Shown here: positions 4,646 through 13,846 of the stretch, piece after piece
How positions within the stretch are numbered: the stretch's first letter is position 1
Layout: every line of letters starts with the position of its first letter
DNA from: Ruminococcus albus 7 = DSM 20455
GTDB lineage: Bacteria > Bacillota > Clostridia > Oscillospirales > Ruminococcaceae
Length of the DNA: 32,000 bases
NCBI RefSeq assembly: GCF_000179635.2
Contig: NC_014833.1
Span: forward strand, 2,190,001 to 2,222,000
Direction: 5' to 3'
The notes under the pieces: generated by a model
The model's input: the letters and a program-made list of their open reading frames with translations, nothing else
Database searches by the model: none
Told to the model about the DNA's origin: nothing
Translations under genes and position numbers: made by a program

Positions 4646-5556
4646 TTATATTGGCTTCCATTTTATAAGTTTTTTCTCTGCTATATCCAGCACAACATTC
4701 AATATGGTTATCACAGTTCCTACAACGAATATTCCTGCAAGTACTCTGGCATAATCGGCATAGTCTGAATATTTTTTTATGAAAAATCCAAGTCCGCTTG
4801 TTGCACCGATCATCTCTGCCATTATTAGGATCATAAATATGGTGGAGATCTGTATTTTAAGATTACCGACAATTGATGGGATACTGTAAGGCAGTATCAC
4901 CTTAAAAAGCATTGTTGGTGTACTTACATTCATTGCCTTGGCAGAATCTATCAGTCTTCCGTTTATGCTGCCGACCCTGTTTATCATTCCAAGGAATATC
5001 GGCCAGAACATACCTATGCCTATTACAGCTATCGATGCAGATGTAAATGTGGGCATCAGCGCGATGAGATATGGGGTATATACCATGGGCGGTATAGGGC
5101 TGAGTACTTTAGCAATTGGTGTAAAATCATTATTGAGCCGTTTTACCCATCCCACTATCATGCCCAGTATATTTCCCGATATGAGTGCTATTGAAAATCC
5201 TGTCACCAGTATCATCAGAGAATGACCTATGCCCTCTGCTATAAATTCGCTGTCCTTCAGGAACACCTCGAATACATTCTCCATTGGTGGATTAAGTACA
5301 GGATTGCCCTTGCCAAGTATACGGAAAGTTATATCCCATATAAGAAAAAGACAGTATGGTAGAACCAGATAAGTCCCATGATAGCAACATAGACGGTGTT
5401 TTTCGGTGCGCTGACCTTTCCTTTTATAAACGAAAGTGTTATCACTGTTCCGGCAAAAAGTGTAACAACAGCTATGTTCAGTATTATTTTGCCGACAGAG
5501 TAAGTTTTCTCACTATCGCGTGATTCCAATGTATTTATTGTTCGTGTATCTGTCAT
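4646..5556 (-). pseudogene. ABC transporter permease (NitT/TauT / SsuC-type), split by a 1-nt frameshift
   Basis: Two ORFs cover it: 5556->5329 (75 aa, two TM helices) and 5284->4646 (212 aa, BPD-type permease core). The 75-aa ORF start overlaps the ATPase stop (ATGA at 5553-5556), which is typical operon coupling. The downstream frame stays open upstream of its ATG and reads LIWDITFRILGKGNPVLNPPMENVF. Adding one base to the A5 run at 5345-5349 fuses both parts into one 303-aa protein. Confidence 0.75.
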
Positions 5557-6332
5557 GCAGTTCTCACCTTCACTTCTGTAAACAGGTCGAGCAGCTCATG
5601 GCGAAGCTGATCGTATCTGTTTAGTCGAATCAGTTCCTCTCTTGGGGTATTTGCGGGAAGACCTACATTTACTTCTGTCCTTATCTTATGGGGCTCCATG
5701 AAATATACCTTGTCAGCCAGGACCAGTGCTTCGTCGATATCATGGGTAATGAATACCACTGTCTTTTTCTCCCCGCGTTTTTTGCAAAGCTCAATGCTGA
5801 GTTCCTGTAATTCTATACGCTTCTGTGGGTCGATAGCTCCGAATGGTTCGTCCATGAGAAGTATGTCCGTATCCATCGCAAAAGCTCTTGCCAGAGCCAC
5901 ACGCTGCTGCATTCCGCCCGAAAGCTCGTGTGGATATTTATTAGCACTGTCAGCAAGTCCGACCAATTCAAGATACTCCTCTGCTCTCTTTGCTATCTCT
6001 TTTCTGTTTTTTAGTATACCGGCTTCTTTGATTCCGAACATGATATTCTTTTTTGCAGTAAGCCACGGGAAAAGTGAATAGTGCTGAAATACCATACCTC
6101 TGTTTACATCGGGACCTGTAACAGGCTTGTCGTTTATCAGTATCTCACCTTTTGTTGGGAACTGAAGACCTAACAGCAAAGATACAAGCGTGCTTTTTCC
6201 GCAGCCCGAAGGACCGATAAGGCAAGCGAACTCCCCCTCTTCTACCTTAAAATTCAGACCATCAAGGATATTTACTGCTTTGTTATCAGTTTCATAGCTG
6301 AATGAAACATTACGAAATTCTATTTTACTCAT
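5553..6332 (-). CDS. ABC transporter ATP-binding protein (NitT/TauT family, SsuB/TauB-like)
   Basis: Walker A GPSGCGKST, ABC signature LSGGMQQR, Walker B ILLMDEPF and an H-loop ITHD. The 259-aa size is typical of this family. Confidence 0.9.
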   Translation of the reverse strand: MSKIEFRNVSFSYETDNKAVNILDGLNFKVEEGEFACLIGPSGCGKSTLVSLLLGLQFPTKGEILINDKPVTGPDVNRGMVFQHYSLFPWLTAKKNIMFGIKEAGILKNRKEIAKRAEEYLELVGLADSANKYPHELSGGMQQRVALARAFAMDTDILLMDEPFGAIDPQKRIELQELSIELCKKRGEKKTVVFITHDIDEALVLADKVYFMEPHKIRTEVNVGLPANTPREELIRLNRYDQLRHELLDLFTEVKVRTA

Positions 6333-6363: not shown

Positions 6364-7446
6364 TTATACATCGTATTTGTCCGAGAACTCTTTAAGAGCA
6401 ATATAATCGGGATCATCAGGATATTCTTTAAGTATCTGATCAAGCGCTTCGCGGAAGATCTCTGTATTGACATTTCCGCTTATGTCAGCGTCCTTGATTA
6501 TTCCCTCGCCTATTAGATATGCTGCATAATCAACTACTCTGTTCCTTGCAGGATCTGGGTTATAGCGCGAAGCATAATCACCGTAAAGCGCTTCTGTAAC
6601 ATACTCCTCTGTCTGACCCGTTTGTCTGACCATAATATCTATGGCATTGTCATGATCGTTGAGTATCAGTTTGTATGCTCTTATCAAACCTCTCTGATAA
6701 GCTACAAGTTCATCATGTTTTTCTTGGACTACCTTTGAAGTAGTAGTCTGACGGCAGCATGGATAGCACGGATCTATATCACCTACCTTTATTCCCAGAT
6801 CAAGTCCGAAATTTTTTGCAGTCTGTACTCCGTCGGCGGTGATATATCCAACATCGACCTGCCCCTTTGATACCGCCTGAACAATGGAAGTATCATCATT
6901 GAGGTAATCTATCTCGATATCCTGTTCAGGAACTATGCCGATCTCACGCAGCTTTGCACGTATGATGTTATCGCCCGTGTAGCTTCTGGCTGATGCCCAT
7001 TTCTTTCCAGCCCAGCCGGATAATTCAGCAAACTGTTCAGTGTTTTCAGGCTTTGTGATGATAGCACCTCCCTCCTGTGCCGATCCGCCGAAGAATATAA
7101 GATCCTGTCCCTCAGCCATGAATTGTAACTGTAATGTGATACCTACGGGAACTACATCGACTTTGCCTGTTGAAAGCGCTGTTAAACTGTCAGCTGTGGA
7201 GAGAAGAACATCGGAGTTTACCGTCACGCCTTCCTCTTCAAAATATCCCTGATCGTAGGCAACCGTAGTCAGCGCGGACTTTATAGATGAAGGGAACCAC
7301 GCGACTTCAAGTGTACCGACATTCGCTTTGTTTACTCCGCTTCCCGATGTTTTTTTATGCGATGAACTTCCGCAGGCTGTCAGGGTGCTGACAAGAAGTG
7401 AAGTTGCGATCAATACTTCAATAGCTTTCCTTACTCTTTTCTTCAT
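6364..7446 (-). CDS. ABC transporter substrate-binding lipoprotein (NMT1/THI5 - SsuA/TauA-like)
   Basis: Signal peptide with lipobox LTAC (MKKRVRKAIEVLIATSLLVSTLTAC-GSS). I prefer the start at ATG 7446 because a GAGGAAG RBS lies 7 nt upstream. The longer ORF to 7497 adds a non-signal-like extension. Confidence 0.8.
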   Translation of the reverse strand: MKKRVRKAIEVLIATSLLVSTLTACGSSSHKKTSGSGVNKANVGTLEVAWFPSSIKSALTTVAYDQGYFEEEGVTVNSDVLLSTADSLTALSTGKVDVVPVGITLQLQFMAEGQDLIFFGGSAQEGGAIITKPENTEQFAELSGWAGKKWASARSYTGDNIIRAKLREIGIVPEQDIEIDYLNDDTSIVQAVSKGQVDVGYITADGVQTAKNFGLDLGIKVGDIDPCYPCCRQTTTSKVVQEKHDELVAYQRGLIRAYKLILNDHDNAIDIMVRQTGQTEEYVTEALYGDYASRYNPDPARNRVVDYAAYLIGEGIIKDADISGNVNTEIFREALDQILKEYPDDPDYIALKEFSDKYDV

Positions 7447-7503
7447 AAATATCTTCCTCGTATAATAAAAGTAGTAGTTTTTAGAGTTCCTCTCCAAGAA
7501 CTA

Positions 7504-7512
7504 TGGTATAAT
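7504..7512 (+). promoter_or_regulatory. extended -10 promoter element TGGTATAAT
   Basis: Exact TGnTATAAT at 7504-7512 on the + strand, pointing into the IS110 leader and transposase. No good -35 is present. Confidence 0.35.
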
Positions 7513-7699
7513 ATTGTTTAGATGCTGTGGATTGGTTTGATCTTCCTACCGTATGACGGTTTACGAAAGGCTCCGACCGCAGTCTCTATGCAATTTGTTG
7601 ATCAGTTAGATACCGCCCGACGGTTTATTTAGAACGAGGTTACATTAGCGTAGAGTCTCTGTGGATCTAAACAGCATCAATAATTTTGGAGGTATCATT
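7513..7699 (+). ncRNA. candidate IS110 bridge (guide) RNA in the left non-coding end
   Basis: Elements of the IS110 subgroup are known to encode a structured bridge RNA upstream of the recombinase. Here an extended -10 box precedes a ~190-nt non-coding leader. The leader has a long-range complementary pair GATGCTGT (7521-7528) / ACAGCATC (7671-7678). It also has direct repeats CTGTGGAT (7525-7532, 7659-7666) and GACGGTTTA (7555-7563, 7619-7627). I did no structure or homology computation. Confidence 0.3.
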
Positions 7700-8875
7700 A
7701 TGATCGTTGTTGGTATTGATGTGGCAAAGGACAAGCATGACTGCTTTATTGTTGATTCTGAAGGTACAGTACTCTTTGATGTGTTCACTATCCCAAACAC
7801 TCTTGACGGCTTTAATATCCTGCTTGATAACATCAAGTCCGTTACCGAAAATTTTGACATAATAAAAGTAGGACTCGAGGCTACGGGACATTACAGCTAC
7901 AATCTGTTGGGATTTCTGTTGAACAACGGCCTGCCAACCTACGTTCTGAACCCTTTGCACACTAATCTTTACCGAAAAAGCCTTACACTTCGTAAAACGA
8001 AGACAGACAAGGCAGATGCGCGCGTGATTGCTTCTATGCTAATGTCTTGCGTAGACCTAAAGCCCTACACAAATACATTATATCAGAGCGAAGAGCTAAA
8101 GTCAATGACCAGATACAGATTTGACAAGGTTTCCGAGCGTGCAAAGCTCAAGACCTCCGTATCAAGGCTTGTGACTATTCTCTTTCCCGAACTTGAAGCG
8201 CTCGTGCCTTCGCTGCACATGAAGTCTGTCTATACTCTTTTGAGCGAGTTTCCTTCAGCGCAGCATATCGCAAATGCTCACCTTACAAGGCTTGCCAATC
8301 TGCTTTCAGAGACTTCCAAAGGTCACTACGGCAAGGACAAAGCTATTCAGATCAGAGGTGCCGCAAGACGCTCTGTCGGCTCTGTAATGCCTGCAAAGTC
8401 GCTGGAACTCAGGCACACCATAAAGCTCATTGCTGACCTGACCGAGCAGATAGATGAGATAGAAACCGAGATAAAGAAGCTGGTCGATGCAACCGACACT
8501 ACACTTCTGACCGTTCCCGGTCTCAGCTATTCAACTGTCGCTATGATCCTCGCAGAGGTCGGTGACTTTTCAAACTTCGCAACACCCGACAAAGTACTTG
8601 CATTTGCGGGAATGTCGCCCTCTACATACCAATCGGGACAGCTGACGAATTGTTATGCCAAGATGGAAAAGCGCGGCTCAAAGTATCTTCGCTATGCTCT
8701 CTACAACGCTGCCAAATTCGTCTGCACCTGGGACAAGACATTCAAAGATTATCTCGCCAAGAAGCGAGCCGAGGGCAAGCATTACAATGTTGCATTATCT
8801 CACGCTGTCAAGAAACTCGTCAGACTCATTTTTGCTCTTGAAAAGTCTCATTCGCCATATCAGCCTGTTGTTTGA
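7700..8875 (+). CDS. IS110-family transposase/recombinase (DEDD_Tnp_IS110 + Transposase_20 domains)
   Basis: N-terminus MIVVGIDVAKDKHD and GLEATGHY (RuvC-like DEDD fold). The C-terminal motif is VPGLSYSTVAMILAEVGDFSNFATPDKVLAFAGMSPSTYQSGQ. A GGAGG RBS lies 7 nt before ATG 7700, so the longer ORF from 7661 is unlikely. Confidence 0.9.
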   Translation: MIVVGIDVAKDKHDCFIVDSEGTVLFDVFTIPNTLDGFNILLDNIKSVTENFDIIKVGLEATGHYSYNLLGFLLNNGLPTYVLNPLHTNLYRKSLTLRKTKTDKADARVIASMLMSCVDLKPYTNTLYQSEELKSMTRYRFDKVSERAKLKTSVSRLVTILFPELEALVPSLHMKSVYTLLSEFPSAQHIANAHLTRLANLLSETSKGHYGKDKAIQIRGAARRSVGSVMPAKSLELRHTIKLIADLTEQIDEIETEIKKLVDATDTTLLTVPGLSYSTVAMILAEVGDFSNFATPDKVLAFAGMSPSTYQSGQLTNCYAKMEKRGSKYLRYALYNAAKFVCTWDKTFKDYLAKKRAEGKHYNVALSHAVKKLVRLIFALEKSHSPYQPVV

Positions 8876-8934
8876 AATTTTTGTTAATCTTCATTTTTAG
8901 GGGTTGACTTTTGATAGTTAGTCTTTCGCATATA

Positions 8935-10488
8935 TCAGATAGTGGGCTTATCCGTTTCGGGCAGACCGGTTATATAATGGTATGGGCTCTTGCCATACCA
9001 CTGTTCCTGATACGGAAGTTTGGTATGTGCTGAAATATTCCGCGCATAGGCTGTGTTTTTCAGAGTTCTCTCTATCCTCTTTGCAAGGGAGTATGCTCCC
9101 GTAAAACCGAAATATGTAAATCTCTGTGCAAACAATGTGAGCGAAGGTACGCCTGCCTTTACAAGCCATACACCTACTGAGGGGTGAGATATGGCAATAT
9201 CCGGTTTAAGCTTGTATACCATGTTAACTAGCTCGTTTGCCTGAGTTGAAACAGCATTCTGAACATCACCTATCTTTTCCTGGACCTCGCTGAACAGCTG
9301 ATCTCCGAATTCATCATAGTTGAAGTTTCTGAAACCCACAACTTTAAGTCCTATCTCATCTGCCAGAAGTCCCGTTGCACCAATACGTAGAAAACCGCCG
9401 CTTATCAGAACGCTCTTTCCCTCTACATTTTTTCTTATTGGTACCAGCGCCTTTTTCAGCTTTTCAGTTTCCTTTTTCAGCAGAAAATCTGCTTCTTTTT
9501 CAAGGCCGAAAAATTCAGCTATGGCTTTTATGAACTTTACTGTCTGATCTGTACCTATAGGGATTGTGGGGAGTATATATGGTATACCGAATTCCCTTTT
9601 CAGATACTCAAGGAAATATACATCATGTACATGACAAAAGCTTACATTCAGTGCAGTCTCGGTAATAAACCTCCAGTCATCGGGCTCTTTGTATTCAACG
9701 AATATATTGACATTGATCCCCAAAGCATTCAAAAGTCTCTTGATCTCCTTTTCATCTCCGGGACCAATGGACCATGCGTTATACAGGGTCACAGTGCGGC
9801 TCTTTTTGTATTCGTAGCGCTGCTTTTTGATCTCGTAGTCGGGATCGCTCTTGTCAAATGGGGTATAGTCGATATATTTTTTAGGCTCAAAGCCAAACCT
9901 GTGCATTATGCCGTGGTACACAACATCATACGCCGAAGAAAATACCTTCGCACCGAAACCGGGACAATGGAGCGGTACAACTGTTGCTGTTACCTGCTCC
10001 TGAGCATGGTTAACAACGCTTTCTATATCATCTCCGATAACTCCGGGGGCGCAGGTATTGCAGACAAATATAGCTGTGGGACGGAAGCGTCTGTCGGCTT
10101 CGATAATGGTATCGTAAAGCTTTTCATTTCCGCCGCTGATAACGTCAGTCTCTGTCAGATTTGTACTCAGCCATCTTACACCTTCCATCTTCACTCCGCG
10201 TGCAGCACCGTACTGCTTTATGCTGAAATCAATACCATGGGACTGTGAACCGCAGCCAACAGGACCATGCATTATTACGACGGAATCCTTTGTCGAGAAT
10301 GAAATCAGTGTCGAAACACCCATCTGGCAGAACATAGCCTGCGTAAAGCTGCGGTCGCATCTACCAAGACATCCTGCGCATGAACCGCTCCTGAGATCAC
10401 TTGTACATCCGCCGAAAGCATAGGCTGTGGCTCTCTGCCTTTCTCTGGGATTTGGTACCTGCACATCAAAATTTACATCGAATTTCAT
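8935..10488 (-). CDS. nitrogenase component-1 family (Oxidored_nitro) protein, alpha-type (NifD/NifE-like)
   Basis: HGPVGCG (10252-10269), STNLTETDVISGGNEKL, CNTCAPGVIGDDIE, LHCPGFG and FCHVHDVYFLEYLKREFGIPY align by eye with NifD segments HGPVGC, CPVGLIGDDI, RCEGFRG and [21 protein letters not shown]. A GGAGG RBS lies 9 nt upstream, and the gene starts 6 nt after the preceding gene's stop. Confidence 0.8.
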   Translation of the reverse strand: MKFDVNFDVQVPNPRERQRATAYAFGGCTSDLRSGSCAGCLGRCDRSFTQAMFCQMGVSTLISFSTKDSVVIMHGPVGCGSQSHGIDFSIKQYGAARGVKMEGVRWLSTNLTETDVISGGNEKLYDTIIEADRRFRPTAIFVCNTCAPGVIGDDIESVVNHAQEQVTATVVPLHCPGFGAKVFSSAYDVVYHGIMHRFGFEPKKYIDYTPFDKSDPDYEIKKQRYEYKKSRTVTLYNAWSIGPGDEKEIKRLLNALGINVNIFVEYKEPDDWRFITETALNVSFCHVHDVYFLEYLKREFGIPYILPTIPIGTDQTVKFIKAIAEFFGLEKEADFLLKKETEKLKKALVPIRKNVEGKSVLISGGFLRIGATGLLADEIGLKVVGFRNFNYDEFGDQLFSEVQEKIGDVQNAVSTQANELVNMVYKLKPDIAISHPSVGVWLVKAGVPSLTLFAQRFTYFGFTGAYSLAKRIERTLKNTAYARNISAHTKLPYQEQWYGKSPYHYITGLPETDKPTI

Positions 10489-10494
10489 ATATCT

Positions 10495-11829
10495 TTACCT
10501 CCCCGATACCTGTGCTGTTATCAGATCTTCCAGCAGTGCAAGTCCGCCGTTGAAGCCTGCGTATGTTTTATTGAGTATGATACGGCTCATTGCAGGAAAG
10601 CTTATATTCAGGAAATTTCCGTTCAGTACCTGTGAAAGCTTTCTGTCGATGGAACTGCCAAGAACGAATGCAGGCTCAAGTTTTTCATAATAGGTATCCG
10701 ACAAAAACTGAGGGTCATTCTGTGTGATGTACTGCTGTATCTTTGAGGTATCCGTTTCAAATACAAGCTTCGGACGATATTCAAAAGGCAGTTCTTCAAA
10801 ATGTTGGCGAATGATCTCCTTATTTTTCTCCCTAAGCTCATCGGTTATAAATACATACTCGGGAAGCCAGCCTATCTCGTTATCAAGATATTGTGCATAA
10901 GAGAGTGCCTGTGTCGCATTGTTGACTACCACTGCATAGTTCTGGAAATCCGTATCTGCAATAACGTCGGTTGCTCTGTCAACATAGCTGTAATAACGCT
11001 CAACTTCTTTTTCAAGAGCTTTTTCAGCAAATTCCCTGTCAATGCCAAGCTTTTCTGCTATTTCAATTGCAAACTTAACTGAAGCATTGCTGCCGATAGG
11101 AAGATCGGTAACTATATAATCTATACCGTGCTTTTCCTTAGCCGCCTTTGCAGCTCTTATTCCGTTTACAGGTGAAAGAACGATATTCAAAGCTGCTTTA
11201 CCGGCATTTCTGATATCCTCGATTGTCTGGTCGAGTGTTACAAAGGTAGTTGCTTTAACACCGATAAGTGAGAGTATTCTCCTTATCTCTTCAAGGTCGC
11301 CCCTGAAAAACGGATCGTATGCAGGTACAAGTCCAAGCAGATTAACAAGCTTTTCATCTTTTTCTTTTGTTACGGGTATGTACTGTTCAAAAAAGCTCTT
11401 TATCACGATATCATAACCATAGTAAGAATTGCCCTTGAATCCGCCTGTATCAACGAATATCAGAGGATACTCGGGTCTTTCTACCTCGCTGATGACCGCT
11501 TCAACATCATCACCGATAAGATCGGTCATACAGCTTGTAACTACTACAAAAAGATCGCCGTCCATTACATCGTAGGCCGCAAGTATCTCTTTTCTGAGCT
11601 TCTCAGCACCACCAAAGATGATCTCCTTTTCACTTACATTTGAACTGGGAAGTGAAGCACCGCCGCAATAACCAACTCCCAGATATCCGCCGTAAGCAAA
11701 TGAATTTGTCAGCTGACCGCCGCAGCCCTGTGCTCCGTGTATTATAGGTATTACTCTCGGAAGAGAGGTGAGAGTTGCTAGTGCGCCTCCCAGCATACAT
11801 GAAAACCTTGGTCTTTCAATAAATGACAT
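10495..11829 (-). CDS. nitrogenase component-1 family (Oxidored_nitro) protein, beta-type (NifK/NifN-like)
   Basis: FSCMLGGALA, HGAQGCGG and VVVTSCMTDLIGDDVEAV match the three NifK/NifN cluster-Cys motifs (aCqPlGA, HGSQGC, TTCmxExIGDD). I prefer the start at ATG 11829 (MSFIERPRF) because a GGAGGG RBS lies 5 nt upstream. The GTG at 11847 would overlap the cysK stop. Confidence 0.8.
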   Translation of the reverse strand: MSFIERPRFSCMLGGALATLTSLPRVIPIIHGAQGCGGQLTNSFAYGGYLGVGYCGGASLPSSNVSEKEIIFGGAEKLRKEILAAYDVMDGDLFVVVTSCMTDLIGDDVEAVISEVERPEYPLIFVDTGGFKGNSYYGYDIVIKSFFEQYIPVTKEKDEKLVNLLGLVPAYDPFFRGDLEEIRRILSLIGVKATTFVTLDQTIEDIRNAGKAALNIVLSPVNGIRAAKAAKEKHGIDYIVTDLPIGSNASVKFAIEIAEKLGIDREFAEKALEKEVERYYSYVDRATDVIADTDFQNYAVVVNNATQALSYAQYLDNEIGWLPEYVFITDELREKNKEIIRQHFEELPFEYRPKLVFETDTSKIQQYITQNDPQFLSDTYYEKLEPAFVLGSSIDRKLSQVLNGNFLNISFPAMSRIILNKTYAGFNGGLALLEDLITAQVSGR

Positions 11830-11843
11830 GATATCCCTCCTTA

Positions 11844-12791
11844 TCACGCAAGTTCCGCAGGCTGATCGAAAAGTGCGGTACTAAGGTAACGTTCTCCCGT
11901 ATCAGGCAGAAGCACAACTATGCGCTTGCCTTTATTCTCTTTGCGTTTAGCAAGTTCGATAGCGGCAAACAATGCTGCACCCGATGAGATACCCACCAGC
12001 AGTCCCTCAAGTCTTGCCGCTGTTCGTGCAGTTTCCAGAGCTTCCTTGTTCTTCACCCTGAATATCTCATCAATTACTTCTCTGTCAAAGATATGCGGAA
12101 CAAATCCGGCACCTATACCCTGTATCGCATGAGGTCCGGGAGCTTCACCCGAAAGAACAGAGGAATCATAGGGTTCAACTGCTATAACTTTTGTATCGGG
12201 ATCATTCTGTTTAAGAGCTCTGCCTGTACCTGTTACAGTTCCGCCGGTACCCACTCCTGCAACGAAGTAATCCACCTTACCATCGGTATCTCTTATGATC
12301 TCCTGTGCAGTAGTTTTTGTATGTATTTCCGGATTTACAGGGTTATCGAACTGCTGTGGGATAAATGAATCCTCTATCACCGCATTGAGTTCTTCCGCCT
12401 TGCGGATAGCACCCTTCATACCCTCTGCCGCAGGAGTAAGAATAACCTTTGCCCCAAGCTGAGTTACCAGCCTGCGTCTTTCTACCGACATACTCTCGGG
12501 CATTGTAAGTATAACTTTATATCCCTTGACTGCCCCGACAAATGCAAGCCCGATGCCTGTATTTCCGCTTGTGGGTTCAATTATGGTATAACCTTCTTTT
12601 AAAAGTCCTTTTTCCTCTGCATCTTCTATCATCGCCAGAGCTATCCTGTCCTTTACGCTTCCCAGAGGATTGAAGTATTCAAGCTTTGCATACACCTCTG
12701 CATATAGTTCGTCATCTCCTGCCAGCCTGCTTATTTTCAAAAGCGGCGTATTGCCTATAAGCTCTGTCAGATTTTCTGCTGTCTTTGACAT
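11844..12791 (-). CDS. cysK: cysteine synthase A (O-acetylserine sulfhydrylase, PLP-dependent)
   Basis: [11 protein letters not shown] (PLP lysine), [12 protein letters not shown] and [11 protein letters not shown] motifs in ~315 aa. The start is ATG 12791, or GTG 12797 two codons upstream. Confidence 0.9.
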
Positions 12792-12808
12792 GATCACATC
12801 ACCTTTCC

Positions 12809-13150
12809 TTACTTGCTGCGTTTTCTGTACTCTACGATCTTTTCGATCACATAATCAGTATCAGAACCGGGCATTTCAAAATATTTCTTTCTTTGGGTCT
12901 CAAAATATCTCTGTATCCTGCTCCCGATGCGTGCGGCGATAACATACTGGCAGTTTTCCACAAGTTCAAGTCTTGCTTCTGCACCTCTGTGATCTCCGCT
13001 GCATCCTTCCTGATTTCCAAAGGATATTGTTTTTTCCTTGGCGGAAACATCATCTTCGATACGATAGATATCAAAACGTGAAGCAGAACCGAAGTGCTGG
13101 TCTACTTTATGTCCGTCCGCCGTAGCAACTGCTATTCGATATTGGCTCAT
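12809..13150 (-). CDS. NifX/NifB-C-terminal-like dinitrogenase FeMo-cofactor-binding family protein (Nitro_FeMo-Co)
   Basis: [31 protein letters not shown] is the signature N-terminus of this small-protein family, and [14 protein letters not shown] fits the family's C-terminal half. An AAGGAGAG RBS lies 8 nt before ATG 13150. The annotated longer ORF start at 13177 lacks an RBS. Confidence 0.8.
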
Positions 13151-13196
13151 AAAATTTACTCTCCTTATCAAATTCATTTATAGTTATTGTTAAAAT

Positions 13197-13247: not shown

Positions 13248-13275
13248 ATTATATCATAAAAATTCCTTCCGTCAA
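13248..13275 (-). promoter_or_regulatory. sigma-A type promoter for the nifX-like/cysK/nitrogenase-like operon
   Basis: On the minus strand: TTGACG (13275-13270), a 16-nt spacer, then extended -10 TGATATAAT (13256-13248). It lies about 100 nt upstream of ATG 13150. Confidence 0.55.
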
Positions 13276-13846
13276 CTAAAATATAGAGCAACGTTATTAT
13301 AACATTTGACTTTCAATAACTAATATGCCTAAATTTGTTAATAAGGTATGAGTAAAATATCTCTTTGTAGTAAAATTCCTTGGATTTACAGGTTTTGCTG
13401 TAAAAGGAAATGCGTTAAATACTAAATACGTGATAACGTTACATCTCTTGAAACAGAGCTTTTCTAGTCATTAAGCTGATCAACACTTTTTGGATCATTC
13501 CATTTAACTACTGATCTGTGATAATTGATATCACCAAGCCTAAAAAACACAACATAATACGGCTTTGTTCGCAGTCCGAAATGCACCAATAAAAACGTAA
13601 AATGACAACAAAGACTCCTTATGATCTATTTCTTTTTGAATTTACATGGTACTTCCCTTCTATATTTTAGTTTTACTCATGAAACTAAAATAGTACTGCT
13701 ACAGAGTGTGAGATTTGAAGATGATTGTGCAGGATATGTAATAAAAAAAGCAGGATAATCTATTGTTAAAATTATTAAATTGAAGTACAATTATAATCGC
13801 AGCGGAAGGATTCTGCATTAACTATCCATAATAAGGAGGAATATCC

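What the first reader, a model, noticed from the sequence alone, without database searches (positions are those of the whole stretch)
8935..11829. Cluster-ligand cysteines look conserved in both subunits, including the NifD Cys275-equivalent position, and the gene order is beta-then-alpha
Seen in the sequence, beta-like protein: Cys residues sit in SCMLGGA, HGAQGCG and TSCMTDLIGDD.

Seen in the sequence, alpha-like protein:
- Cys54 lies in MFCQMG, Cys79 in HGPVGCG, and another Cys in NTCAPGVIGDD.
- Cys285 (codon 9634-9636) lies in FCHVHDVYFLEYLKREFGIPY.
- There is an extra N-terminal Cys cluster, C28-x8-C37-x2-C40-x3-C44.

Established knowledge: in Mo-nitrogenase three Cys from each subunit ligate the P-cluster. 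NifD Cys275, in [21 protein letters not shown], ligates FeMo-co.

Inference: a 3+3 Cys bridging-cluster site and a cofactor-type pocket may both be retained. That points to a complex-cluster reductase rather than a DPOR-like 4Fe-4S enzyme. I could not decide the His442-equivalent by eye. The gene order, with the HGxQGC-type subunit first and the HGPVGC-type second, is the reverse of nifDK and nifEN.
Basis: partly seen in the sequence, partly recalled or inferred. Interest (0 to 1): 0.62.

Follow-up and report, generated by a model that had tools for sequence, protein, structure and literature searches.

The report
Nitrogenase-like sulfur enzyme, subunit genes swapped
These two Ruminococcus albus genes encode the catalytic core of a nitrogenase-like enzyme that keeps every residue needed to hold nitrogenase-type iron-sulfur clusters. 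It sits in a cysteine-synthesis operon, so it most likely salvages sulfur and does not fix nitrogen; it belongs to a large branch of a known family whose substrate is still unknown.

Summary
Window 10495-11829(-) encodes a NifK/MarK-like beta subunit and 8935-10488(-) a NifD/MarD-like alpha subunit. The assignment holds by sequence (PDB 9FMG/9D9U, E 1e-75 and 2e-55) and by predicted fold (TM 0.81-0.90).

All six P-cluster cysteines are present. So is the cofactor cysteine (C285 = MarD C270 = NifD C275). The undecided histidine is H435 (= MarD H429); the NifD H442 position is Phe. These residues are invariant in 83 alpha and 25 beta homologues. Of the extra N-terminal Cys cluster, only C40 is conserved.

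The beta-then-alpha order is not a local accident. It is shared by 71 of 82 related gene pairs and marks a single ancient inversion on the tree. A cysK gene lies just upstream in 41 of these.

The pair is not a methylthio-alkane reductase. It lies outside the Mar clade and lacks MarD Arg428 and Trp195. R. albus has no NifH or NifB gene at this locus and must borrow the single set 540 kb away.

Most likely this is a Group IV nitrogenase-like carbon-sulfur reductase feeding CysK, substrate unknown: a new member of a known, uncharacterised kind. The scan had already noted this stretch and the genome's two other pairs.

The parts
13248..13275 (-). Promoter-like site (TTGACG, 16 nt, TG-TATAAT) about 70 nt upstream of the NifX-like gene; candidate operon promoter
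   Evidence: 11 of 12 consensus matches. This is a consensus match only, not a tested promoter.
12809..13177 (-). NifX/NafY-type cofactor-carrier protein (122 aa), first gene of the operon
   Evidence: PF02579, E 1.8e-15. TIGR02663 nifX, 42.8 bits, below its cut-off. 28% identical to the two NifX-like proteins of the genome's BHDK cluster.
11844..12797 (-). Cysteine synthase A (CysK, 317 aa), one of four CysK-type paralogues in the genome
   Evidence: TIGR01139, 444.6 bits against a cut-off of 351. Paralogue count. A cysK lies directly upstream of the beta gene in 41 related loci.
10495..11829 (-). Beta (NifK/MarK-like) subunit, 444 aa from the ATG at 11829. P-cluster cysteines C17, C42 and C106 (450-aa ORF numbering) have codons 11797-11799, 11722-11724 and 11530-11532
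   Evidence: PF00148. PDB 9d9u_C MarK, E 1.3e-75. AF2 model matches 9fmg_B at TM 0.87/0.88. The three Cys are invariant in 25 homologues. Codons checked.
8935..10488 (-). Alpha (NifD/MarD-like) subunit, 517 aa. P-cluster cysteines C54 (10327-10329), C79 (10252-10254) and C146 (10051-10053). Cofactor ligands C285 (9634-9636) and H435 (9184-9186). Conserved N-terminal C40 (10369-10371)
   Evidence: PF00148. PDB 9fmg_A MarD, E 2.3e-55. AF2 model (pLDDT 85.7) matches 9fmg_A at TM 0.81/0.90. Ligand columns are invariant in 83 homologues. Codons checked.
7498..8934 (+). IS110-family insertion (transposase 7661-8875), in the spacer between the alpha gene and the binding-protein gene. Specific to this strain
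   Evidence: PF01548 and PF02371. Other R. albus strains have alpha and the binding-protein gene about 20 nt apart.
6364..7446 (-). SsuA/NMT1-type ABC substrate-binding protein
   Evidence: PF09084. TIGR01728 SsuA_fam, 65.6 bits, below its cut-off. The start at 7446 is taken from the junction with other strains.
5553..6332 (-). ABC transporter ATPase (NitT/TauT type)
   Evidence: PF00005. Best NCBIfam hits are SaoA and ntrCD, both below their cut-offs.
4646..5556 (-). ABC permease, disrupted in this strain. Residues 1-67 and 78-322 of the intact R. albus 8 orthologue lie in different reading frames
   Evidence: tblastn of the L021 permease against the window.

Best explanation
The two genes encode the catalytic (component 1) heterotetramer of a Group IV nitrogenase-like enzyme, here called NflKD.

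Cluster content. By homology with the solved methylthio-alkane reductase MarDK, it should hold two clusters. One is an [8Fe-7S] P-type cluster at the alpha/beta interface, on three cysteines from each subunit. The other is an [Fe8S9C] L-type cofactor buried in the alpha subunit, between C285 and H435.

How it is supplied. Electrons would come from an ATP-dependent NifH-like protein, and the cofactor from a NifB-like radical-SAM enzyme. R. albus has neither gene at this locus. Both must be supplied in trans by the single nflB-nflH pair in the BHDK cluster about 540 kb away, with the operon's own NifX-like protein probably ferrying the cofactor.

What it does. The operon (nifX-like, cysK, nflK, nflD, then an SsuABC-type importer) and the lack of any sulfite reductase or ATP sulfurylase in the genome point to sulfur salvage. 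An imported organosulfur compound would be cleaved reductively at a C-S bond, and the reduced sulfur product (sulfide or a small thiol) would be captured by the co-translated CysK to make cysteine.

What it is not. It is not a nitrogenase and not a methylthio-alkane reductase. It belongs to a separate, widely distributed clade whose hallmark is a single ancient inversion to beta-then-alpha order.

Shown: fold, subunit identity, ligand conservation, clade membership, conserved gene order and neighbours, purifying selection. Inferred: cluster content, the trans-acting partners, the substrate class and the product.
For: - Sequence and fold: the best solved relatives are MarD and MarK.
- Ligands: all eight MarDK cluster ligands named in the structure papers are conserved and invariant across the clade.
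- Partners in the genome: 10 PF00148 genes, one true NifH-type gene (426 bits) and one NifB-like gene, both in C1:2.740-2.746 Mb.
- Partner co-occurrence: five other Ruminococcus genomes that carry this operon all keep that NifH at 88-100% identity.
- Partner compatibility: in several Lachnospiraceae and Butyrivibrio loci (L045, L073, L083) the only H gene next to a K>D pair is of this same type, 80-83% identical.
- Selection: dN/dS is 0.01-0.07 for alpha, beta and cysK among Ruminococcus strains that all lack a local H or B gene.
- Context in 80 related loci: K>D in 71 of 82 pairs, cysK in 62 loci, an ABC transporter in 63, a NifH-like gene in 43, NifB-like in 35 and NifX-like in 38. These are floor values because many contigs are short.
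- Sulfur metabolism: no PF01077 sulfite reductase and no ATP sulfurylase in a 99.99% complete genome.
- Operon structure: tight spacers and ribosome-binding sites join nifX-like, cysK, nflK and nflD.
- Phylogeny: the K>D clade has 100/99 support. It is nested in a D>K grade and is sister to the Mar plus A-type clade.
Against:
- Non-IV-C Group IV systems showed no activity on DMS, EMS or MT-EtOH when expressed in R. rubrum, so the substrate is open.
- MarD Arg428 and the essential Trp195 are missing, so the cofactor environment differs and the cluster could be bound or used differently.
- The nearest non-Ruminococcus relatives carry their own NifH, only about 50% identical to the R. albus one, so cross-reaction with the remote NifH is assumed, not shown.
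- In this strain the importer is cut off by an IS110 element and its permease is frameshifted, so the pathway may be impaired here.
- CysK linkage does not prove that sulfide is the product: CysK also accepts other nucleophiles, and R. albus has four CysK paralogues.
Confidence: 0.72

Rival explanations
1. It is a methylthio-alkane reductase isozyme (Group IV-C Mar) that cleaves DMS, EMS or methylthio-ethanol to methanethiol. It would be like R. palustris marKD2, which also has beta-then-alpha order.
For: The closest solved structures are MarD and MarK. All Mar cluster ligands are kept. The context is sulfur metabolism. A K-then-D Mar is known.
Against: - It lies outside the clade that holds R. 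rubrum MarD: 23-30% identity and a sister clade with 96-100 support. The genome's pair B, in contrast, scores E 8e-196 to MarD.
- Trp195, whose loss inactivates Mar, is Phe here and M/F/V/Q across the clade. Arg428 is absent.
- Group IV clades other than IV-C showed no Mar activity.
- The linkage here is to cysK, whereas Mar's product methanethiol is used by O-acetylhomoserine sulfhydrylase.
Confidence: 0.1
2. It is a cofactor scaffold or maturase (NifEN-like) that processes the NifB product for the genome's other two DK pairs, and is not itself a catalyst.
For: A NifX-like carrier is the first gene of the operon. There is no local H or B gene. The alpha subunit scores nearly as well on the NifE model as on the NifD model. 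A flexible Cys-bearing N-terminus recalls the NifE Cys15/Cys25 cluster-docking residues.
Against: - Both subunits keep all three interface cysteines (the P-cluster pattern), and an internal Cys/His pair is invariant.
- The R. rubrum Mar system needs no NifEN-type scaffold.
- The clade travels with cysK and importers, often without any other DK pair: only 18 of 80 loci have one.
- NifE and NifN model scores are far below their cut-offs.
Confidence: 0.06
3. It is a Group IV-A (Nfa)-type enzyme acting on nitrogen compounds or N2.
For: The superfamily, the P-type plus L-type ligand set and the absence of NifEN resemble the NfaBHDK system of Endomicrobium proavitum.
Against: - Positions equivalent to NifD Gln191, His195 and His442 are Phe183, Tyr187 and Phe453.
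- Its neighbours are sulfur genes, and nothing nitrogen-related is nearby.
Confidence: 0.04
4. In this strain the locus is a decaying remnant: the catalytic genes are intact but no longer used.
For: An IS110 element separates the importer from the operon and the permease is frameshifted. There is no local H or B gene.
Against: dN/dS is 0.01-0.07 across Ruminococcus strains. The nifX-like, cysK, nflK and nflD genes are all intact, with ribosome-binding sites and a promoter-like site. The damage to the importer is specific to this strain.
Confidence: 0.08

Closest known systems
Methylthio-alkane reductase MarDK of Rhodospirillum rubrum (Group IV-C NFL; PDB 9FMG, 9D9U)
   Same: - Same fold and subunit pairing.
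- All six P-cluster cysteines, plus the Cys270 and His429 L-cluster ligands.
- No His at the NifD His442 position.
- No NifEN in the genome, and no sign of a homocitrate or heterometal site: the NifD Gln191 and His442 positions are Phe.
- Dependence on a NifH-like reductase and a NifB-like maturase.
- Sulfur-salvage gene context.
   Different: - Only 24-31% identity, and a separate sister clade on the tree.
- Beta-then-alpha order.
- Arg428 is absent (Loop I is one residue shorter).
- Trp195 is Phe, His194 is Val, Phe199 is Tyr and His375 is Asn.
- MarK's seventh cysteine (Cys52) is Gly.
- No H or B gene in the locus.
- Linked to cysK.
R. palustris marKD2 / nflDK3 (bioRxiv 10.64898/2026.08.20.746119)
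   Same: Several Mar-like pairs in one genome share fewer H/B sets. One pair is written K-then-D, and one pair is an orphan with no known activity. A NifX homologue is needed. All are induced by sulfur limitation.
   Different: Those pairs are close Mar relatives: 52-65% identical to Mar1, with close homologues reported only in Rhodopseudomonas (Mar2) or other Alphaproteobacteria (NflDK3). Because the Mar/A-type clade is D>K on the tree, the marKD2 order most likely arose independently of the ancient inversion seen here.
Uncharacterised Group IV NFL clades (IV-D, IV-E, non-ISR IV-F) of North et al. 2020 and mBio 2026
   Same: Predicted P-type and L-type clusters, co-location with cysteine synthase and transporters, occurrence in Clostridia, Negativicutes, Bacilli and gut anaerobes, and no Mar activity.
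   Different: I could not assign the letter, because no reference sequences for these clades were obtainable with the tools. The review states that Arg428 is conserved in nearly all Group IV systems; this clade lacks it.
Mo-nitrogenase NifDK and the scaffold NifEN
   Same: Superfamily, the 3+3 Cys P-cluster site (NifDK), and the Cys275-equivalent cofactor ligand.
   Different: No His442, Gln191 or His195 equivalents. TIGR01282 scores 136 bits against a cut-off of 654. Gene order is reversed. No nifEN in the genome.

Membership tests
Nitrogenase component 1 superfamily (PF00148) | Full-length match to the Oxidored_nitro model in both subunits | tested here: met
   236.4 and 233.6 bits against a cut-off of 28.6.
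Group IV NFL with MarDK-type clusters | Six P-cluster cysteines (MarD C66/C91/C158 and MarK C32/C56/C121) | tested here: met
   Alpha C54/C79/C146 and beta C17/C42/C106. Invariant in 83 alpha and 25 beta homologues.
Group IV NFL with MarDK-type clusters | L-cluster ligands MarD Cys270 and His429 | tested here: met
   C285 and H435, invariant in all 83 homologues of this clade.
Group IV NFL with MarDK-type clusters | Arg428 next to the His ligand (reported as conserved in nearly all Group IV systems) | tested here: not met
   Ser434 in the pairwise alignment, a gap in the multiple alignment. No Arg in any of the 83 homologues.
Group IV NFL with MarDK-type clusters | A NifH-like reductase and a NifB-like maturase are available | tested here: met
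   Absent from the locus. One of each is present at C1:2.743-2.745 Mb. Whether they serve this pair is inferred.
Group IV NFL with MarDK-type clusters | Actual metal-cluster content (about 32 Fe per tetramer, P-type and L-type EPR signals) | not testable with these tools
   Needs purified protein.
Methylthio-alkane reductase (Group IV-C) | Falls in the clade with R. rubrum MarD | tested here: not met
   Sister clade, with 96/95 and 100/100 support. Window alpha against MarD gives E 2e-55, whereas paralogue B gives 8e-196.
Methylthio-alkane reductase (Group IV-C) | Trp195, required for activity | tested here: not met
   Phe183 here. Trp is present in all 21 Mar/A-type sequences but in only 2 of the 83 sequences of this clade.
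Methylthio-alkane reductase (Group IV-C) | Cleaves DMS, EMS or MT-EtOH to methanethiol | not testable with these tools
   Published screens found no such activity outside IV-C.
Mo-nitrogenase NifDK | His442, Gln191 and His195; NifD model above its cut-off; nifEN present | tested here: not met
   F453, F183 and Y187 at those positions. TIGR01282 scores 135.7 against 653.55. No further PF00148 genes beyond the five known sets.
DPOR/COR-type [4Fe-4S] reductases | Three Cys from N/Y plus an Asp or a single ligand from B/Z, with no Cys275-type ligand; family model above its cut-off | tested here: not met
   Beta keeps all three Cys and alpha keeps the Cys275 equivalent. BchB and BchN models score 85-102 bits against cut-offs of 420-490.
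Isethionate reductase IsrBHDK (Group IV-F) | Diverged P-cluster cysteines, a BciD-like (non-NifB) radical-SAM partner, and placement in the IsrD clade | tested here: inconclusive
   The cysteines are retained, and relatives carry NifB-like partners 40-60% identical to the R. albus NifB-like protein. Both argue against membership. No IsrD sequence was available for a tree.

The most novel reading that the evidence does not exclude
The beta-then-alpha clade may be a distinct enzyme class: an ATP-driven, L-cluster-based reductase that releases sulfide, not methanethiol, from an organosulfur compound. Candidate substrates are a thiol such as methanethiol or coenzyme M, or a sulfonate. The sulfide would be handed directly to a dedicated CysK. 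This would give gut and soil anaerobes that lack sulfite reductase a route to cysteine. In R. albus, one NifH/NifB set would then drive three different catalytic cores.
Probability: 0.25. Interest if true: 0.72.

Novelty: new member of a known kind. Interest (0 to 1): 0.45.

Why it matters
Group IV nitrogenase-like enzymes are the only known anaerobic route for cutting some carbon-sulfur bonds, and they carry the same clusters as nitrogenase. Most of their clades still have no known reaction.

This locus gives a clean handle on one large clade:
- It is found in rumen, termite-gut and anoxic-soil bacteria of at least six phyla.
- It can be recognised by an inverted subunit order, by cysK linkage, and by an altered cofactor environment (no Arg428, no Trp195).
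- R. albus is culturable and lacks sulfate and sulfite reduction, so it is a practical organism for finding the substrate.
- It also allows a test of whether one NifH/NifB pair can serve three different catalytic partners.

Tried and rejected
- Assigning the lettered Group IV clade (A/D/E/F) failed. The North 2020 paper is not held, the mBio supplements are not held, and no Nfa or Isr reference sequences could be fetched.
Upstream of this operon there is only one weak site, with 3 mismatches, at 13431-13444. True triplet operator clusters lie elsewhere in the genome. Co-regulation is therefore not shown.
- There is no riboswitch or other Rfam element anywhere in the window.
- The N-terminal four-Cys motif is rejected as an extra cluster site. 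Only C40 is conserved, and the segment is predicted disordered (pLDDT below 50 for residues 39-47).
- Model coordinates are not exposed, so Cys-His distances could not be measured.
- No multimer prediction was available.
Full report
**What is there**

The window is chromosome position 2,190,001-2,222,000 of a 4.48-Mb, five-replicon genome. Its closest public relatives are Ruminococcus albus strains.

On the minus strand lie four tightly packed genes:
- a NifX-type cofactor carrier (12809-13177);
- cysteine synthase CysK (11844-12797; TIGR01139, 444.6 bits, above its cut-off);
- a 444-aa beta-like protein (10495-11829);
- a 517-aa alpha-like protein (8935-10488).

Spacers between these genes are 6-14 nt, and the beta and alpha genes have good ribosome-binding sites. 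The real beta start is the ATG at 11829, behind an AAGGAGG site, not the GTG at 11847. A promoter-like site with 11 of 12 consensus matches sits about 70 nt upstream of the first gene.

Downstream come an IS110 element on the opposite strand and then an SsuA-type binding protein, an ABC ATPase and a permease.

**Checking the observation**

The decisive comparison is with the solved methylthio-alkane reductase of R. rubrum. The alpha protein's best PDB hits are 9FMG and 9D9U chain A (MarD, E 2e-55). The beta protein's best hit is 9D9U chain C (MarK, E 1e-75).

The structure papers name the ligands:
- P-cluster: MarD C66, C91, C158 and MarK C32, C56, C121.
- [Fe8S9C] cluster: MarD C270 (= NifD C275) and His429, the latter on a Mar-specific loop.

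The printed alignments map these ligands as follows:
- MarD C66, C91, C158 correspond to alpha C54, C79, C146.
- MarK C32, C56, C121 correspond to beta C17, C42, C106.
- MarD C270 corresponds to alpha C285.
- MarD His429 corresponds to alpha H435.

The column of NifD His442 holds F453, and it is Phe or Tyr in all 83 homologues.

AlphaFold models built from 25-26-sequence alignments (pLDDT 85.7 and 82.4) match MarD (TM 0.81/0.90) and MarK (TM 0.87/0.88) ahead of NifD and NifK. The alpha/beta assignment therefore stands.

Across 83 alpha homologues at 38-99% identity, and across 25 beta homologues, all eight ligand columns are invariant.

The 'extra' N-terminal Cys cluster is not a motif. Only C40 (in G-C-L) is invariant, and the segment is predicted disordered. 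NifE uses N-terminal Cys15 and Cys25 to dock the L-cluster, and the MarD N-terminus is flexible. A similar docking role for C40 is possible but untested.

**What it is not**

It is not a nitrogenase:
- The NifD model scores 136 bits against a cut-off of 654.
- The Gln191, His195 and His442 positions are Phe, Tyr and Phe.
- There is no nifEN in the genome.

It is not DPOR-like: both subunits keep three interface cysteines, and the Cys275 equivalent is present.

It is not a Mar enzyme. The genome has three Mar-like pairs:
- Pair B (C1:593985-596890) scores E 8e-196 to MarD.
- Pair A (in an nflB-H-D-K cluster at 2.740-2.746 Mb) scores E 8e-133.
- The window pair scores only E 2e-55 and shares 23-31% identity with A and B.

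In a tree rooted on NifD, the window protein's clade (83 rows) is sister to the clade that holds MarD and all A-type and B-type proteins. Support is 99-100 in the quick tree and 96/95 and 100/100 in the careful mixture-model tree.

The clade lacks Arg428, which is said to be conserved in nearly all Group IV systems, because the loop is one residue shorter. It also replaces Trp195, whose loss inactivates Mar, with Phe here and with M, F, V or Q elsewhere.

Published screens found no Mar activity in Group IV clades other than IV-C.

**Gene order**

I annotated 80 related loci from named genomes. They come from Bacillota, Spirochaetota, Thermodesulfobacteriota, Planctomycetota, Ignavibacteriota and Synergistaceae.
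- The beta gene lies directly upstream of the alpha gene in 71 of 82 pairs.
- Seven pairs are at contig edges or are rearranged.
- Four pairs are alpha-then-beta.

On the careful tree those four form the basal grade of the clade. All beta-then-alpha members form one clade (100/99, and present in 100% of bootstrap trees). Mar, the A-types and NifDK are all alpha-then-beta. The simplest reading is one ancient inversion that has been inherited since.

R. palustris marKD2, the one published K-then-D case, is a close Mar relative. Because the Mar/A-type clade is otherwise alpha-then-beta, its order most likely arose independently.

**Neighbours and function**

In the same loci:
- cysK lies directly upstream of the beta gene in 41 cases, and somewhere within 8 kb in 62 of 80 loci;
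- an ABC importer is present in 63 loci;
- a NifH-like gene is present in 43, a NifB-like gene in 35 and a NifX-like gene in 38;
- another DK pair is present in 18.

A typical layout is B-X-H-cysK-K-D-importer.

All Ruminococcus versions lack the H and B genes. The window genome has just one true NifH-type gene and one NifB-like gene, both in cluster A. Five other Ruminococcus genomes with this operon keep that NifH at 88-100% identity. In several Lachnospiraceae and Butyrivibrio loci, an H gene of the same type (80-83% identical) is the only one beside a K>D pair.

The alpha, beta and cysK genes are under strong purifying selection in Ruminococcus (dN/dS 0.01-0.07), so the pair is in use without a local H or B gene.

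The genome, 99.99% complete, has no sulfite-reductase domain and no ATP sulfurylase. It has four CysK paralogues.

Together this supports an ATP-driven reductive C-S cleavage of an imported organosulfur compound, with a reduced sulfur product passed to the dedicated CysK. The link between Cys275-bearing nitrogenase-like proteins and cysteine synthase was already noted in 2012. The substrate remains unknown.

**Strain-specific damage**

In this strain an IS110 element sits in the roughly 20-nt spacer between the alpha gene and the binding-protein gene. Other R. albus strains have no element there. The permease gene is also frameshifted. The catalytic genes are untouched.

**Limits**

- The lettered clade could not be assigned.
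- Cluster content and the trans-acting partners are inferences from homology and gene distribution.

**Verdict**

The finding is an intact member of a large, uncharacterised branch of a known family. Ligand retention is the family norm. The inverted order is a useful clade marker and not a local oddity.

Noticed in passing
window 7498-8934: An IS110-family element is inserted antisense in the roughly 20-nt spacer between the alpha gene's stop and the binding-protein start, within its ribosome-binding region. R. albus AR67, R. albus 8 and related MAGs have no element there.
   Followed up: yes
window 4646-5556: The ABC permease is disrupted. Residues 1-67 and 78-322 of the intact R. albus 8 orthologue map to different frames, with about 10 residues lost. 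The listed 212-aa ORF is a remnant.
   Followed up: yes
window 8077-8105 (-): A strong promoter-like site (TTGACT, 17 nt, TG-TATAAT; 11 of 12 matches) lies inside the IS110 transposase gene and points toward the stranded importer genes. It could drive them after the insertion.
   Followed up: no
window 13431-13444: A single degenerate copy (ATGTAACGTTATCA on the operon strand) of the TGATAACGTTATCA palindrome. That palindrome forms triplet operator clusters at five other places in the genome, including upstream of the BHDK operon. It is too weak to call a site.
   Followed up: partly
genome C1:591979-596890 and C1:2740282-2747843: There are two further Mar-like pairs. Pair B (binding protein, permease, D, K) scores E 8e-196 to MarD. 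Pair A sits in a metY-like, cysK-like, nifX, nflB, nflH, D, K, nifX cluster that holds the genome's only NifH-type and NifB-like genes.
   Followed up: partly
whole genome: There is no siroheme sulfite-reductase domain (PF01077) and no ATP sulfurylase (PF01747) in a 99.99% complete genome. There are four CysK-type paralogues and one cysE.
   Followed up: partly
L085 (Candidatus Clostridium eludens); L077, L074, L099 (Pelosinus): Some genomes stack three or four different DK/KD pairs within 17 kb. Pelosinus propionicus carries both an alpha-then-beta and a beta-then-alpha copy of this clade in one locus.
   Followed up: no
alpha residues F183 and N390: The gut subclade (Ruminococcus, Treponema, Family XIII, Adiutrix, Planctomycetota MAGs) sits on a long stem (0.5-0.66). 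Phe (21 rows) at the MarD Trp195 position and Asn (23 rows) at the His375 position probably mark it, where other K>D members mostly have M/V/Q and His. The per-subclade split was not tabulated. This hints at a further change in specificity and at transfer among gut bacteria.
   Followed up: partly
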